Shown: one piece after another, positions 18,500-58,200 of the stretch
Layout: each line of letters opens with the position of its first letter
How positions within the stretch are numbered: the first letter of the stretch is position 1
NCBI RefSeq assembly: GCF_040938485.1
Contig: NW_027271794.1
Location: forward strand, 62,001 to 126,000
DNA from: Diadema antillarum
Lineage: Eukaryota
Direction: 5' to 3'
DNA length: 64,000 nt
Program-made: the position numbers

Positions 18500-21400
18500 C
18501 ATTTAAATAAGCTTTAAAGACATTCAAATGATAATTTTACAGAAAGTGGGTGTCGGATTGGTTTGATTATAAATCATTAGAAATAAACATAAAGGTCTAT
18601 GTAGTCTAATTAGTGTAAAATGATCGTATCAGACATTTTAGAGATTAAAAAAGAGTATGATTATCAACAAGCATTGACATCTTGTACAGTCCGGCACATT
18701 TTGTATAATAATGTGTTACAGTGTAATTAATGTGTTGTGCGCAGAACTGTGGAACTCACTACCACTACAAATTATCATTGTCCCACCTATAGATGCTTTT
18801 AAAATCAGATTAAAGAAAAATAAAAGCCGTTACCACTGCAAGGTAACAGGTGAGATGTGCCGGGAATTTTTTTTTTTTCGAGGTTTGTGAACATGTATAT
18901 TTTTTCTCTCGTTTCTCATTTTTCTTTATTTCGCATGTTCCTTCCTTGTATCAAAATTATATTATTATATGTTATTATTATATTATATGTTAATTCATAT
19001 CAAGGCATCTCAGTGCAGTTGTGCTTTGTAAATTTCGAGGGACGTGCCCTGTTTATCGAACTATCCTATGCCATAATTTTAAAAGTACTTTTGTATTTCC
19101 ATAGATCTGTTTGGAATAAGGATATTTTGAATCGACATGAATTGAAAATATAATTTTACCTTTATCATTTTCTATGTGCGATATTTCATAGCATCATAGA
19201 TTATAAGCTGCAAAAAGTGCAAATGAAATACATATACGTAGGTTTACCGAAAAATCTTAAATAAGAAAACATTTCCCTTCACATTCTTTTAAAAAAGAGG
19301 TTTAATCCTTATATAATCATTTATCATATCGTATCTTCACGAAAGGAGTATTTTCCCATGCAAATACTACACAGACATGGATGATGTGGTCAGTTTTTTT
19401 TTTTGTGAANNNNNNNNNNNNNNNNNNNNNNNNNNNNNNNNNNNNNNNNNNNNNNNNNNNNNNNNNNNNNNNNNNNNNNNNNNNNNNNNNNNNNNNNNNN
19501 NNNNNNNNNNNNNNNNNNNNNNNNNNNNNNNNNNNNNNNNNNNNNNNNNNNNNNNNNNNNNNNNNNGTATTCGAATTTCATAATCTAATGGTTATATGGC
19601 AAGGAGTTGTTTATTCCAAACGGTACGTCCTGGACATGATAGGTATGTGGCTACACCCTATGTGTTGTCTGAGGTCTTTAGACAACTCTTGAAAATTACG
19701 CGTTTTCCCTCTCGAATTTGATTGTATCTCTTCTAAGGGTTCAATATTACCGTTGAATAAATTACTGCCCAAATATACTCGCAACGGAAGGGATAGTCTC
19801 ATAAGTTTTTTCTCCCGAGTTGTCTACTGCGTTGAGGCCAGAGCAAAGTGTCGCTTGATGGTCTTCTTCCAACAGCATGTTTTGAATCATTGCATTGGAC
19901 TCACCCGATGGGATCTTTCCTTGCCCAGTTTTAGACATGAAAGATGAGAGTACAAGGTCGCTGGCGGGAGCGGTATCCTCTCGAACCCCAAAGTCACTGA
20001 AGGGATCGGCGGCGGAATCATCGGATGAATCGTCGTTGAGGAAACGTTCCTCATTGTTGACTGACTTCGATGTGAGCCCCGCAATAGGATCCTGCTCCTT
20101 CCTTGCAAATGGGGGAGTGTAACTATCCAGTTCAATGGTCAGGGAATTCAAACTGCAGTGACGGCGATATCGAGGATGATACTCAATTGGATTTTCCCCC
20201 TGGGACAGTTTTTGCTTTTGCCTACGTCGTCGAGCAACGGTGCAAATCGCCACAGCAATGACAACTACTCCCAGGCCTGTGCATACTGAGAGTACAGTAA
20301 CAAGTGCAAAGCGTGGATTATCATCTTCTGAACTCTCTGTGGACAGAAAAGAGTTGGTTGTTGTTGTTGTTGTTGTTGTTGTTGTCATTGCTTGCACAGG
20401 CGTTGTCTCTTTACTTGTTTCAGAGGGTGTTTTTGATTGATGAGTGAATGAAGAAACTGTGCTAACAGCTCGTTGCGTGGTGGAGTCGTCTGCGACCATC
20501 GTATACGGGGCATTGTTTTGGTCAGTATTACACAGAACAAATGACGTATCATTTGATGTTTGGAATTTTATTTCAACTCCTCCATTCCTCTTACTCATGT
20601 CTATCTGAAACACGAGGTTGCTATTGTCTATGTATCCTGTCGTGCTTTTGCCGCTAACATGAACAATCACTTCTTTTTCTCCGAAGGGTCTTTCCCAGCC
20701 TCCAAGTACACATGAGATGTTCGCATACATTTGTCTGTAGTTTTTATCAGCTGGTAGCAGGCAATCACAAACAATTATTTGGACATCGAACTGTTTTAAA
20801 ACCGGGTATTCAAGCGTTACGCCATTGTATTGAAGCCTGTTGCAAGTGTATTTTCCAAAATCAGTTCTGATCGTATTGACGATTTGAAGCTCAAAAGAAC
20901 TCATACCTTCTAAGTAATGCTTCCGATACGCATATGAAATCCGCATATCTTTAATTACGTGTTGAGCTAAGCCAAGTCGCGGATCAAAAATCACTACGTT
21001 AGTTTCTTCGTTGTCTTGATGTTTTATCCAATAAGTAAGTTGGTCCAAGTTGTTTGGAAACAAGCACAAGAGAGTCATATTAGCTCCAACTCCATAGTCT
21101 CGGGGAATGGAAACATCTTGGCTGTACACAGACGACATGATGGGTATCAGTATGGAAATGATTCGAAGCCATCGACACTCGACAAAATTCGAAATACAGT
21201 TACGAGAAGACAGCATGGTCACCCACGCAGTCTCCATGTCGCAAAGATCTATCGAAGGAAATCAAGGATGGCTCAAGCATCCATTGGTCAGACATTTAGT
21301 GCACAAGGAATCGAGACAGTTTGTAAGCTTAAAGATAGTGTAGACCTATTCGTTTCCTCACTGCAAAGGTAAAACGTTCGGAGAAAACCAAGAACGCACC

Positions 21401-55200: not shown

Positions 55201-58200
55201 AAAGCGATTCTTATAAAATTGACAGGCCACTTTTGCTATGATTTCTTTGATTTACATTGTTTTTAGATATCTCACTAATTTCAAAACCGATTTTCATCAA
55301 AAAAAAAAGTTTGATTCCCCTTAGAATTGTATGCTCTTTAACTTTCATAGAGTGATTTCTAAATATCTTGCAAAATGTTACAAGCTGAATCCTCACCTCA
55401 ACCAGTACTGTACATTACAGAGATAAATACTGTGTATACCTTATTCGATTGCTAATTTATACTTGCATATCTAATATGTAATAATATACGATAATGTAAA
55501 GAATATGCACATAATGCAATACGTAAACCAGACGATAATACATTCATATATACAGTGAACATACATGAACAGAGACATCAATCATGCTTGCCGAGAGGAT
55601 TGAAACCATAGCAAAAGAAAAAGGATAAAGATTAAACGACGATACATTAGTGACAAGTGATTATAGCTCGGGTCAAGCATTTAGAGTAGACGCGAAAATG
55701 GTACAAGACTGACGTTTTTCAACGTTTCAATATTTTCCACGGATTTTGAACTTTCAGTGCTTTTTACTTGTAAACTTCAAAAATACCGATAATCTATTTC
55801 ATAATATCTTATACAATGTTTGACATGTCACGCAAACGCGATGACTGAGTGTTCAAGCTTGTAATCTGTTATTGATGATGTAATCGAAATATACGATTTA
55901 TTCATTTTTTGTTGTGTAGGTAATGGATTTCTATACGTTTTTCTTTTTATAGAAATGCATGTGACATCTTAATAAATTAAATAGTCGGTTTCCGAAAAAA
56001 AAAAGTGCTACAGCTTTGTGGATGTTGACCAAGATGAGTTTTTTTTTTTTTCACTCTAAATTTCATACAAAGGCTTAAACGATGGTAGAATAGACTGCTG
56101 TGTAAAAATCACTAGAAACAGGTGGTGTAGTGTAATAGGTTCCTTCCTCCGAAGTGTCCTCTTTGTTCTCTTCCTCCGAACTGTCATCTTTGTTCAAGAC
56201 AAAGTAAAAGGTCGTTTCATCTGCCCCCTCTGCCCCCTTCTCACCTGTCACCCCTTCCTGACTGTGCCTTTGACGGTCTTCCTCCAACGGCGTCTTTTGT
56301 ATCAGGGTCGTTCCTGAAGACTCACACGATGGGGTACCAAAGCTTTTAGCCTGTCCAAGTTTAACCGTAGTAGATGAGAGAACAAGGTCTCTGGAAGCGG
56401 TATGGGTCTCTTCTCTGATCCCAAACTCATTGAAGGGATTATCGAATGAATCGTTACTAAGGGAACGTTTCTCATCGCCATCAGGGCCAATGTCGTCGTT
56501 GACTGACTTCCCACATGACTGATGAGCCGGAACACTGCTGGTGCATGCTTGCGGCTTGGTAGAATGCAAGCTATCCCGTGCATTTCTCAGTAGACTTAAT
56601 CGTTGTCTCCAGCGATGACGCTGTCGAAGATAAAATGGCCCTCGCCGACGTGGACGAGCGCATATCGCTATGGCAATGAGCAGCACTCCACCAAGACCAC
56701 CGCCTACTGAGATTGAGATGATGAGCACAAATCGTAAACTCACACCCTCTGAAATTTCAGTAGTTGTCATCACTGGTGTCATCTTTTCTGTTTCTTTTCT
56801 AAGGGTGCTTCCTGTTGCCGCGCTCCCTGCCACAGAGGTGGTCGATGCTGCTGTAATGCCAGGGAATTGGTCCGGAGTGTTTGTTCCTCCTCGTTGCGTG
56901 GTGGAATCATTCGTGGTCATCATAGGAACTGTCGTTGCAACTGCAGCGGTAGATTCACTAACGGACTCTGTTGTCATTACTTGCTCATGTAGGCCTGTAG
57001 TTCCACTGCTTTTCGCAGGAGGTGTTTCTGATTGATGAGTGGATGAAGAAATTGTGCTAACAGCTCGATGCGTGGTCATGGTGGTGGAATCGTCTGTGAC
57101 CGTCGTATAGGATGCATTGCTTCGGTCAGTATTACACCGAACAAATTGACTGTTATTCGATGTTTGGAATTCTATTTTAATCCTTCCGTTTGTCTCAGAC
57201 ATATCTATTTGAAACAAATTAAGCGTCCCATTGTCTATATATCCTGTCGTGTTTTCGCCGCCAACAAGAACCACTTCTTTTCCTCCGTTGGGTCTTTGCC
57301 AGCCGTCAAGTACACATGAGATGTTCGCATACATTTGTCTGTAGTTTTTATCAGCTGGTAACAAGCAATAACAGCCAATTATTTGGACATCATACGATTT
57401 AAGAACCGGGTATTCGGGCGCTGTGCCATTATACTGAAGCCTATTGCAAGTATACTTTCCATAGTCAGCTCTGGCTGTATTGATGATATGAAGCTCAAAA
57501 GAACTCATGTCTTCTGAATAATTCTTCCGATACTCGTATGAAATCCGGATGTCATCAATTTTGTTTTGGGCTTTGCCAAGTCGCGGATTAAGAATTAGTA
57601 AAGAAGTCGATGCGTTGTCTTGATGTCTTATCCAATACATCAGGTCGTACCAGTGACTTGGAAAAAGACACAACAGAGTCATATTTGCTCCAACACCGTA
57701 GTCTCTGGTAATGGAAACTTCTTGGCTTCTCACAGACAATATAATATGTATCAATATGGGAATAACGCGAAGCCATCGGCCCGAGAGAGAACTTGAAATA
57801 CACATACGAGAAGACGGCATAGTCATTCCAGTTTTGAAGTCGATCAAATATAGATTGAGCATCCATTGGTAAGGCATTTTGTTAAGGAATGAATCAAGAC
57901 AGTTGTCACGTGTTTTCCCCACCTCAGTGTATGCAAAAGGATAACATGTTTCGAGAAATATCAAAGAAGCACAATCACAATGTTCCAGTACATCCGATCA
58001 CAGCATTCCTCTTCACAATTACTGCAGTGAACAACTGCCTCCTTTATGGCTGGTGATCATTATGATTCGTTCTTATCAACAATAGGCTAGGCATTATTGT
58101 GACGTTTCACCTCTATGAATCAACGTCCTCGCGGCTAATGTCACTTTCATCTGACTTCTCCAAGTCATTGACTGACATGACAAACACAACTGACGACGGT

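What the first reader, a model, noticed from the sequence alone, without database searches (positions are those of the whole stretch)
19762..57820. Cluster of intronless V-type Ig membrane receptors evolving by birth and death
Three same-strand paralogs each encode leader, V-type Ig, a second Cys domain, mucin-like stalk, TM and Tyr-motif tail in one uninterrupted ORF. IgSF receptors usually have about one exon per domain, so an intronless CDS suggests a retroposed founder later amplified by segmental duplication. Two intact copies, one dead copy and strong divergence resemble diversified innate immune or allorecognition receptor families. I cannot assign it to a named family.
Basis: partly seen in the sequence, partly recalled or inferred. 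Interest (0 to 1): 0.7.

Follow-up and report, generated by a model that had tools for sequence, protein, structure and literature searches.

The report
Single-exon Ig membrane receptor gene cluster
Three neighbouring copies of an unnamed, rarely seen cell-surface protein gene with antibody-like domains, each written without introns, arose by ordinary DNA duplication; two look working and one is broken, and nothing yet shows that they are immune receptors.

Summary
Three minus-strand paralogs lie at 19762-21237 (491 aa, intact), 28997-30726 (disabled) and 56075-57877 (600 aa, intact). Each reads leader, V-set Ig domain, second Ig-like domain, Ser/Thr-rich stalk, TM helix and long Tyr-bearing tail in one frame.

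The V-set call rests on a family profile against PDB (CD226, TCR V, VNAR, NITR), an AF2 model (pLDDT 73) and Foldseek matches to Fab heavy chains. The window copies alone score just under Pfam's cut-off.

The family is real but very sparse. Six of the 9 hits among 1.84 billion representatives share the architecture, a seventh relative came, and hhalign gave E 1e-20. None carries a name.

Copies 2 and 3 come from an 11-15 kb DNA duplication. Copy 1 shares 0.5-0.85 kb of 5' flank with them.

I found no retrogene hallmark. Selection is purifying (omega 0.49), and the V domain is the most conserved part. The intact copies carry no strict ITIM, ITSM or ITAM.

The organism is undetermined. The closest precedent for the gene structure is echinoderm kirrelL, and membership there could not be tested.

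The parts
19762..21237 (-). Copy 1 (c1), an intact single-ORF gene of 491 aa. Segments: leader 21121-21237, V domain 20773-21120, domain 2 20521-20772, stalk 20314-20520, TM 20236-20313, tail 19765-20235, stop 19762-19764.
   Evidence: ORF. Segment coordinates. V-set scores 20.8 bits against a cut-off of 26. TM at residues 313-331.
21238..22092 (-). 5' flank of c1 that is still alignable with the 5' flanks of c3 (57827-58350 and 58367-58583) and c2. It is a putative promoter or 5' UTR that was duplicated along with the gene.
   Evidence: Sensitive blastn aligned 20380-21778 with 56969-58350 at 70% over 1451 columns, and 21876-22092 with 58367-58583 at 62%.
28997..30726 (-). Copy 2 (c2), the disabled paralog. 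The ATG is at 30726-30724. A 1-nt deletion near 30700 shifts the frame after the start. An 18-nt in-frame deletion lies in domain 2 near 30250. An in-frame TAA lies at 29657-29659 inside a copy-specific stalk insertion. The terminal stop is at 28997-28999.
   Evidence: Sequence, DNA alignment, three-frame reading. The tblastn match breaks at 30700. c2-c3 omega is 0.72.
56075..57877 (-). Copy 3 (c3), an intact single-ORF gene. It is 600 aa from the first ATG, or 583 or 581 aa from the ATGs at 57826 or 57820; 57820 is the one conserved in the other copies. Segments: leader 57725-57826, V domain 57377-57724, domain 2 57125-57376, stalk 56735-57124, TM 56654-56734, tail 56078-56653.
   Evidence: ORF, coordinates. 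V-set scores 25.7 bits against a cut-off of 26. The AF2 model of residues 50-264 has pLDDT 73. Foldseek matches Fab heavy chains at E 6e-9.
23432..38301 (.). Segmental duplication unit around c2. It is collinear with 49709-60479 and is interrupted by a c2-specific insertion at 31569-35854.
   Evidence: Self-blastn gave 11 collinear blocks at 75-84% identity. c2-c3 dS is 0.19.
49709..60479 (.). Segmental duplication unit around c3, the partner of 23432-38301.
39797..42668 (-). Degenerate LINE (endonuclease plus reverse transcriptase in two frames) lying between the two duplication units and not shared by them.
   Evidence: ORFs. RVT_1 at E 3.6e-18. Exo_endo_phos at E 8e-9.

Best explanation
The region holds a tandem cluster of three paralogous genes for a lineage-restricted type I membrane glycoprotein of the immunoglobulin superfamily. 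The whole coding sequence of each copy lies in one exon.

Shown here:
- The protein is built as leader, V-set Ig domain, a directly abutting second Ig-like beta-sandwich (conserved junction YDVxVIGCxC, then C and C), a Ser/Thr/Pro-rich and probably O-glycosylated stalk, one TM helix, and an acidic tail of 160-200 aa with C-terminal Yxx-hydrophobic motifs.
- The cluster grew by DNA-level duplication. An older event (dS about 0.6) separated c1 from the c2/c3 ancestor and copied at least 0.5 kb of 5' flank. A younger one (dS about 0.2) copied 11-15 kb and gave c2 and c3.
- c2 has since been disabled by a frameshift and a nonsense codon.
- The two intact copies are under purifying, fairly relaxed selection.

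Inferred:
- The V domain, held away from the membrane on the glycosylated stalk, binds a ligand on another cell or particle.
- The tyrosines near the C-terminus are phosphorylated or serve as sorting signals and pass the event on. In short, a cell-surface recognition or adhesion receptor.
- Whether its role is immune, developmental (adhesion or fusion) or something else is not decided by the sequence.
- The absence of introns is a property of this family's founder. Its origin, by retroposition or by intron loss, is open.
For: - Paralogy and anatomy.
- V-set, Pfam: the window copies score 20.8-25.7 bits, just under the cut-off of 26. Relative P0009 passes at 32.6 bits, and P0010 carries a precomputed PF07686 assignment.
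- V-set, PDB: the profile of 10 family sequences matches V domains only (CD226 at 4e-8, TCR delta and alpha V, shark VNAR, NITR10/11 at 8e-7, CD4 D1), always over profile positions about 41-140.
- V-set, model: the AF2 model has pLDDT 73 and pTM 0.67, with nine strands in domain 1.
- Domain 2 as Ig-like: Foldseek aligns about 215-230 columns of the two-domain model with Fab heavy chains and a gamma-delta TCR (E 6e-9 to 8e-8, TM 0.38-0.47).
- A real family: 9 of 1.84 billion representatives scored E <= 1e-3, and 6 of those share the architecture. A seventh relative, P0010, came. hhalign of the window copies against the relatives alone gave probability 99.3% and E 1e-20 over 192 columns spanning both domains.
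- DNA-level duplication.
- Selection.
- TM, stalk and motifs.
Against: - No expression data exist, so even the two intact copies are not shown to be transcribed.
- The window copies do not individually reach Pfam's V-set cut-off.
- The first AF2 run, with 3 sequences, failed at pLDDT 27. Domain 2 of the second model is only moderately confident (10-residue blocks at 55-78), and the two-domain TM-scores are low (0.38-0.47, rmsd about 11-12 A).
- The tails of the intact copies match no strict ITIM, ITSM or ITAM, so signalling is conjecture.
- The leader has a long n-region, and its hydrophobic core did not reach the 19-residue threshold that the TM segment reached.
- No ligand, cell type or organism is known.
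Confidence: 0.7

Rival explanations
1. A processed mRNA of an intron-bearing IgSF gene was retroposed and then amplified, and the copies are diversifying innate-immune or allorecognition receptors evolving by birth and death.
For: - The CDS is intronless in all three copies.
- LINE reverse transcriptase is present in the neighbourhood.
- The paralogs are tandem, differ in age and include a pseudogene.
- The best sequence and fold matches of the V domain are to immune-type V domains: TCR, VNAR, NITR, CD226.
- omega of 0.49 is high for a housekeeping-type gene.
- c2, read through its stop, carries the ITAM pattern Yxx[IL]x(6-9)Yxx[LI].
Against: - No poly(A) remnant lies at the end of the c1-c3 homology. 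The A13 run 24 nt after the c3 stop has no polyadenylation signal before it.
- All three copies share the 5' flank for 0.5-0.85 kb.
- The V domain is the best conserved part.
- There is no loop hypervariability.
- The intact copies have no ITIM, ITSM or ITAM.
- A 54-nt run identical between c1 and c3 (0 of 5000 shuffles reached it) hints at gene conversion rather than pure birth and death.
Confidence: 0.2
2. A developmental cell-adhesion or cell-fusion protein of the kind of echinoderm KirrelL. KirrelL is a single-exon, Ig-domain, transmembrane protein needed for fusion of skeleton-forming cells, and its authors also suspected a retrotransposed origin for it.
For: - KirrelL is described as an Ig-domain transmembrane protein whose gene lacks introns in all echinoderms examined, and as a 'single exon' gene (PMC8903837; passages and sections 5, 8, 10 and 16 read).
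- The window genes have the same gene structure and general protein type.
- The V domain is under purifying selection.
- c3 ends in -STIV, c2 in -STII and relative P0002 in -DSVI. These resemble a class I PDZ-ligand end such as adhesion molecules carry. That consensus is recalled and was not tested.
Against: - KirrelL proteins are said to be well conserved across the phylum, yet the window proteins found nothing above 29% identity in two protein collections.
- The nearest unnamed Atlas clusters are mollusc and cnidarian, not echinoderm. This is a lead only.
- No KirrelL sequence could be obtained, so homology is untested.
Confidence: 0.12
3. The ORFs are not host receptor genes. They would instead be cargo of a mobile element or remnants of a large DNA virus, in which intronless Ig-domain membrane glycoproteins are common.
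For: - The ORFs are intronless.
- Foldseek against viral models finds iridovirus, poxvirus and herpesvirus two-domain Ig glycoproteins at E 2e-7 and weaker.
- LINEs lie between the copies.
Against: - The viral matches are weaker than the matches to PDB antibodies and TCRs and are generic to the fold.
- No viral or transposase gene sits next to any copy; Pfam found only LINE domains in 17 ORFs scanned.
- The LINEs lie outside the duplicated units.
- Selection on c1-c3 is purifying over dS 0.6.
Confidence: 0.04

Closest known systems
Echinoderm kirrelL (PMC8903837; Ettensohn and Dey 2017 not held)
   Same: It is a single-exon gene for an Ig-domain, single-pass membrane protein. Its authors also raised a retrotransposition origin.
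   Different: Sequence relationship is untested. kirrelL is described as one conserved gene with a defined role in skeletogenic cell fusion. Here there are three diverging tandem copies of unknown role in an unknown organism.
Hydractinia Alr allorecognition family (PMC9546547, passages read)
   Same: These are clustered type I membrane IgSF genes with a V-set first domain that is hard to see by sequence. The cluster holds many pseudogenes, the tails differ between members, and some carry ITAM or ITIM.
   Different: In Alr genes every Ig-like domain, the spacer and the TM helix each have their own exon ('without exception'). Here everything is in one exon. Alr has an Fn3-like spacer, whereas here there is a low-complexity Ser/Thr stalk. 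No polymorphism data exist here.
Vertebrate V-domain receptors with a second Ig domain or a mucin stalk: NITR, CD226/CD96, TIM, CD8 (properties recalled; only the PDB matches are from a call)
   Same: The V domain matches CD226 (4e-8) and NITR10/11 (8e-7) in the profile search. The architectures are similar: V, then an Ig domain or stalk, then TM and a Tyr tail.
   Different: There is no orthology; the matches are at the level of the V-set fold. The V domain has only the two canonical Cys, unlike the six-Cys V domain recalled for TIM. No J-like FGxG motif is visible in the G strand region (sequence). The intact copies carry no ITIM.
Six to seven unnamed relatives P0002, P0003, P0005, P0006, P0007, P0009 and P0010
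   Same: They share the domain order, the junction YD(V/I)xVI(G/D/V)CxC, the DSGNYTC F-strand motif, the stalk, the TM helix and, in some, Tyr-bearing tails.
   Different: They are only 21-29% identical to c3.

Membership tests
Immunoglobulin V-set domain (Pfam PF07686) | Score at or above the curated Pfam cut-off of 26 bits | tested here: inconclusive
   The window copies score 20.8 (c1), 25.1 (c2) and 25.7 (c3) bits, all under the cut-off. Relative P0009 scores 32.6 bits and passes, and P0010 has a precomputed PF07686 assignment.
Immunoglobulin V-set domain (Pfam PF07686) | B-strand Cys, C-strand Trp, an Arg at the start of strand D, and DxGxYxC in strand F (consensus recalled) | tested here: met
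   Seen in the sequence: LLC...YWI..., IRISY, and ADYGKYTC (c3) or TDFGKYTC (c1). Cys, Asp, Tyr and Cys are invariant in all 10 family members.
Immunoglobulin V-set domain (Pfam PF07686) | V-type fold with C' and C'' strands and similarity to solved V domains | tested here: met
   The AF2 model has nine strands in residues 7-118 and block pLDDT of 70-86. The profile search of PDB hits V domains of CD226, TCR, VNAR, NITR and CD4 at E 4e-8 to 1e-5. Foldseek gives E 6e-9 to Fab heavy chains.
Second Ig-like (constant-type) domain | Beta-sandwich with a B-F disulfide that aligns with a solved Ig C domain | tested here: inconclusive
   Foldseek aligns about 215-230 columns across V plus CH1 of Fabs, but at TM 0.38-0.47. 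Domain 2 block pLDDT is 55-78. No Pfam or PDB sequence match covers domain 2. Four Cys are invariant, and their pairing was not examined.
ITIM/ITAM/ITSM immune receptors | [ILVS]xYxx[ILV], Yxx[IL]x(6-9)Yxx[LI] (definitions as given in PMC9546547), or TxYxx[VI] (recalled) in the cytoplasmic tail | tested here: not met
   The intact c1 and c3 have none. They carry only Yxx-hydrophobic motifs: YETI in c1, and YFVL, YTAV and YSTI in c3. The dead c2, read through, matches the ITAM pattern once. Among the relatives, one ITIM pattern occurs in a cytoplasmic tail, in P0002.
Processed retrogene | No introns in the CDS | tested here: met
   There is a continuous ORF from leader to tail in c1 and c3. The Ig-Ig junction is contiguous and aligns without insertion to all relatives.
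Processed retrogene | Poly(A) remnant at the 3' end and flanking target-site duplications | tested here: inconclusive
   An A13 run lies 24 nt after the c3 stop (A6 in c2, none in c1), with no AATAAA or ATTAAA before it. c2-c3 homology continues for about 5 kb beyond it. Target-site duplications were not searched for. An N gap at 19410-19566 lies close behind c1.
Processed retrogene | An intron-bearing parent gene elsewhere, with homology ending at the transcript ends | not testable with these tools
   No genome of the organism was on hand. c1-c3 homology runs 540-850 nt upstream of the ATG, which fits DNA-level copying of the later duplicates.
Echinoderm KirrelL / PMC-specific Ig-domain proteins | Single-exon gene for an Ig-domain transmembrane protein | tested here: met
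   for the window. for KirrelL.
Echinoderm KirrelL / PMC-specific Ig-domain proteins | Sequence homology to KirrelL, echinoderm origin, and expression in skeletogenic cells | not testable with these tools
The primary paper is not held. The organism of the window is unknown.
Hydractinia Alr family | One exon per Ig-like domain, spacer and TM helix | tested here: not met
   All segments lie in one ORF here. The Alr rule is quoted.
Birth-and-death multigene family | Tandem paralogs of different ages, with pseudogenes and without homogenisation | tested here: inconclusive
   Ages differ (dS 0.19 against 0.62), and one pseudogene is present. However, only three copies are in view, and a 54-nt identical run between c1 and c3 (0 of 5000 shuffles) suggests some gene conversion.

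The most novel reading that the evidence does not exclude
The cluster belongs to a previously undescribed, taxonomically narrow family of intronless V-plus-C Ig receptors in an invertebrate. In this family, paralogs keep nearly the same ligand-binding ectodomain (c1 and c3 are 70% identical there) but carry almost unrelated cytoplasmic tails. That would make it an invertebrate counterpart of vertebrate 'paired' receptors with alternative signalling outputs, born from a single retroposed founder.
Probability: 0.12. Interest if true: 0.6.

Novelty: new member of a known kind. Interest (0 to 1): 0.35.

Why it matters
IgSF surface receptors that form tandem, fast-evolving clusters are the raw material of self/non-self recognition in many animals. 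V-type domains outside vertebrates also bear on the origin of antigen receptors.

This family is almost absent from public protein sets. Only 7 distant relatives turned up, and none of them carries a name. Its members are easy for gene predictors to miss or mis-model.

If transcript data confirm single-exon genes, it becomes a second clear case, besides kirrelL, of an intronless IgSF membrane gene family in an invertebrate. The question of retroposition against intron loss could then be tested once relatives' gene structures are known.

As it stands, this is a well-founded annotation rather than a surprise. Nothing in it requires a new mechanism.

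Tried and rejected
- Word-index protein searches with whole c3 and with its ectodomain found nothing. The third search, with a 9-sequence alignment, returned only P0010 and P0007.
- The first AF2 run, on the 3 window sequences, failed at pLDDT 27 and was not used.
- Three of the 9 HMMER hits were set aside as non-family after Pfam: P0001 (Calx-beta repeats), P0008 (SusE) and P0004 (an 11-Ig protein).
- Rfam and tRNA scans of the window found nothing: 0 matches and 0 genes.
- Pfam on 10 further ORFs found only LINE endonuclease, in 2 of the 10.
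- The Atlas look-alike searches gave only generic V-set clusters and unnamed mollusc and cnidarian clusters at 0.92-0.94. I use these as a lead and not for taxonomy.
- The test for loop-concentrated substitutions was negative.
- A homodimer job on the c3 ectodomain gave 'no answer' (score 0.00; the alignment was not used by the tool). It counts neither for nor against binding.
- Literature: 0 papers hold 'intronless' + 'immunoglobulin superfamily' + 'V-set' + 'invertebrate'. Searches gave the Alr, invertebrate-IgSF review and kirrelL papers. No paper seen describes this family, but only these four searches were made.
- The organism could not be identified. The annotated DNA collections on offer hold phages, plasmids and E. 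coli, and genome contigs holds bacteria and archaea, so they were not used.
Family size and gene structure of the relatives therefore stayed unchecked.
- No spliced model was needed, so no joined step arose. Nothing in the window was taken for human.

Full report
**What is there.** The window is AT-rich metazoan-like DNA (GC 0.30-0.48 in 2-kb windows) with LINE remnants. It holds one N run, at 19410-19566, which I left alone.

Listing ATG-started ORFs of 150 aa or more under the standard code gave 8 ORFs. Four of them, all on the minus strand, belong to one protein family:
- 19762-21237 (491 aa, copy c1);
- 29657-30592 and 28997-29569 (311 and 190 aa, the two halves of copy c2);
- 56075-57877 (600 aa, copy c3).

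BLASTP of c1 against c3 gives 47% identity over the full length, E 1e-146. tblastn of c3 on the window finds c2 at 69% identity and no fourth copy.

The latter is the ATG of the 'MPSSR' start that c1 ('MLSSR') and c2 ('MPSSR') share.

**The dead copy.** One frame of c2 carries the whole protein, but the copy has three lesions:
- A 1-nt deletion near 30700 separates the ATG at 30726 from that frame. The next in-frame ATG, at 30592, lies after the leader.
- A TAA at 29657-29659 ends the frame in the stalk, inside a c2-specific insertion.
- An 18-nt in-frame deletion removes six residues of domain 2 that are identical in c1 and c3.

The rest of the frame is still open, and c2-c3 omega is 0.72 (bootstrap 0.54-0.99; 45 of 2000 resamples reached 1), against 0.49 for c1-c3. 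This fits a recent loss of function. An assembly error at the two lesions cannot be excluded from one sequence.

**Protein anatomy.**
- Leader: the hydrophobic core is VIPILIHIILS in c3 and LRIISILIPIM in c1, followed by SVRS/QEV or SVYS/QDV.
- Domain 1: about 116 aa with exactly two Cys, a Trp 12 residues after the first Cys, IRISY, and (A/T)D(Y/F)GKYTC.
- Domain 2: it follows directly at YDVQII(G/V)CxC and carries two more Cys.
- Stalk: 70 aa in c1 and 131 aa in c3, 50% and 45% Ser, Thr or Pro. c1 has a run of ten Thr. There are 3 (c1) and 10 (c3) N-glycosylation sequons before the TM segment.
- TM: one hydrophobic segment with no charged residue.
- Tail: 157-192 aa, acidic. The C-terminal motifs are (K/G)TY(E/Y)T(I/T)P.V.S.F in both copies, plus YFVL, YTAV and YSTI in c3.

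Under the definitions quoted in the Alr paper, together with the recalled ITSM pattern, the intact copies have no ITIM, ITAM or ITSM. Only c2, read through, matches the ITAM pattern once.

**Is domain 1 a V-type Ig domain?** Pfam finds V-set as the best family for all three copies, but just under its cut-off: 20.8, 25.1 and 25.7 bits against 26. Three further lines support it:
- A profile of ten family members searched against all PDB sequences hits V domains over profile positions about 41-140. The best are CD226 at 4e-8, TCR delta and alpha V domains, shark VNAR, NITR10/11 at 8e-7, CD4 D1 and antibody light-chain V domains.
- An AF2 model built with that alignment reaches mean pLDDT 73 and pTM 0.67. 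It shows nine strands in domain 1, that is, with C' and C''. The earlier run with only the three window sequences failed at pLDDT 27.
- Foldseek against PDB gives Fab heavy chains and a gamma-delta TCR as best matches (E 6e-9 to 8e-8), aligned over about 215-230 columns, that is, over both domains.

The TM-scores are modest (0.38-0.47, rmsd about 11-12 A). I attribute this to a different angle between the domains and to the lower confidence of domain 2 (blocks at 55-78). The claim 'second Ig-like domain' is therefore probable, not proven. No sequence method recognises domain 2.

**Relatives.**
- Two word-index searches with c3 found nothing.
- An exhaustive HMMER search of 1.84 billion cluster representatives, using the profile of the three ectodomains, gave 9 proteins at E <= 1e-3 and none at 1e-10.
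- Pfam showed that three of the nine are something else: Calx-beta repeats, SusE, and an 11-Ig protein.
- The other six (263-499 aa) have the same order of parts and the same junction motif.
- A third word-index search, with a 9-sequence alignment, added P0010 (490 aa).
- hhalign of the window copies against the seven relatives alone gives probability 99.3% and E 1e-20 over 192 columns spanning both domains.
- Identity to c3 is 21-29%.
- None of the relatives has a name.
- The Atlas look-alike search returned only generic V-set clusters and unnamed mollusc or cnidarian clusters at 0.92-0.94. I treat this as a lead.

The organism of the window stays unknown.

**How the cluster arose.** Self-comparison shows the c2 locus (23432-38301) to be collinear with the c3 locus (49709-60479) in 11 blocks of 75-84% identity. 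The shared sequence covers about 5 kb downstream and 2-3 kb upstream of the genes. This is a DNA segmental duplication, with c2-c3 dS of 0.19. A 4.3-kb insertion (31569-35854) is specific to the c2 unit. LINE remnants at 39797-42668 and 44216-45845 lie between the units.

c1 is older, with dS 0.62 to c3. A sensitive blastn still aligns 20380-21778 with 56969-58350 (70% over 1451 columns) and 21876-22092 with 58367-58583. That reaches 540-850 nt upstream of the start codon, while nothing aligns past the stop codon. So c1 also arose by DNA copying that took the 5' flank along, unless the 5' UTR is unusually long.

A 54-nt run is identical between c1 and c3 in domain 2; 0 of 5000 shuffles of the variable sites reached that length. 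In domain 2, c1-c3 dS is about equal to c2-c3 dS (0.34 against 0.30). Both hint at a gene-conversion tract.

**The retroposition idea.** The only hallmark present is the lack of introns in the coding sequence. The A13 run 24 nt after the c3 stop (A6 in c2, absent in c1) has no polyadenylation signal before it, and the first AATAAA or ATTAAA lies at 173 nt. The c2-c3 homology also runs on for kilobases beyond it.

I did not search for target-site duplications. A parent gene could not be sought because no genome was available. The idea therefore remains open, neither supported nor refuted.

It has a published parallel. The echinoderm kirrelL gene encodes an Ig-domain transmembrane protein needed for fusion of skeleton-forming cells. 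It is a single-exon gene in all echinoderms examined, and its authors raised retrotransposition as its origin (PMC8903837; introduction passages and sections 5, 8, 10 and 16 read). Whether the window family is related to KirrelL could not be tested. The sequences are in a closed supplement, and the primary paper is not held.

**The 'diversified immune receptor' idea.** By region, c1-c3 omega is 0.37 for the V domain, 0.51 for domain 2, 0.40 for the stalk, 0.25 for the TM and 0.67 for the tail. Over all 471 codons it is 0.49 (bootstrap 0.37-0.63). The values at or above 1 are the c2-c3 stalk (1.02) and the 27-codon TM (2.04), and both involve the dead copy.

Amino-acid differences between c1 and c3 are not concentrated in the predicted loops. 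Domain 1 has 18 of 72 in strands against 16 of 42 in loops (Fisher p 0.20). Domain 2 has 11 of 41 against 15 of 44 (p 0.49).

What differs most between the copies is the stalk length and the tail. That pattern is unlike families whose binding site diversifies. It recalls families in which similar ectodomains are joined to different tails, but with two intact copies this is only a thought.

**Comparison with known systems.**
- In Hydractinia Alr genes, each Ig-like domain, the spacer and the TM helix have their own exons without exception. That defining gene structure is not met here.
- The vertebrate receptors that the V domain matches best (CD226, NITR, TCR, CD4) are fold-level relatives only.
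- Viral two-domain Ig glycoproteins match more weakly (best E 2e-7), and no viral gene is nearby.

**Verdict.** The retroposed founder and an immune or allorecognition role are not shown.

I file it as a new member of a known kind, namely clustered IgSF type I membrane receptors. Its unusual but not unprecedented trait is a single-exon gene structure. The family is almost unrepresented in public protein sets.

Noticed in passing
window 1-12900: A macrosatellite with a unit of about 3.54 kb repeated about 3.6 times at 98.9-99.5% identity. Its ORFs (95-133 aa) have no Pfam match, and there is no Rfam family or tRNA.
   Followed up: partly
window 15433-17225: Degenerate repeats of about 600 nt at 77-80% identity. 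The ORFs there look non-coding, being low-complexity and hydrophobic.
   Followed up: partly
window 39797-42668 (-) and 44216-45845 (+): Two LINE remnants between the duplicated units. The first has endonuclease and reverse-transcriptase ORFs in different frames. The second has an endonuclease fragment only.
   Followed up: partly
window 31569-35854: A 4.3-kb insertion present only upstream of c2. It carries a 15-nt array (22.5 copies, 32804-33140) and the same unit reverse-complemented (10.4 copies, 35072-35226). A 181-aa 'AIFTS'-repeat ORF there is an artefact of the array.
   Followed up: no
window 20690-20745 (c1) and 57295-57350 (c3), approximate: A 54-nt stretch in domain 2 is identical between c1 and c3, although the pair is 71% identical overall. 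None of 5000 shuffles reached that length. c2 has its 18-nt deletion inside this stretch. This may be a gene-conversion tract or a nucleotide-level constraint.
   Followed up: partly
window 21238-22092, 30727-31570 and 57827-58690: The 5' flanks of all three copies remain alignable for 0.5-0.85 kb at about the same identity as the coding sequence (70% for c1-c3). This suggests a conserved promoter or 5' UTR.
   Followed up: partly
window 19410-19566: A 157-nt N run lies about 200 nt downstream of the c1 stop codon. It limits any reading of the c1 3' end and was left untouched.
   Followed up: no
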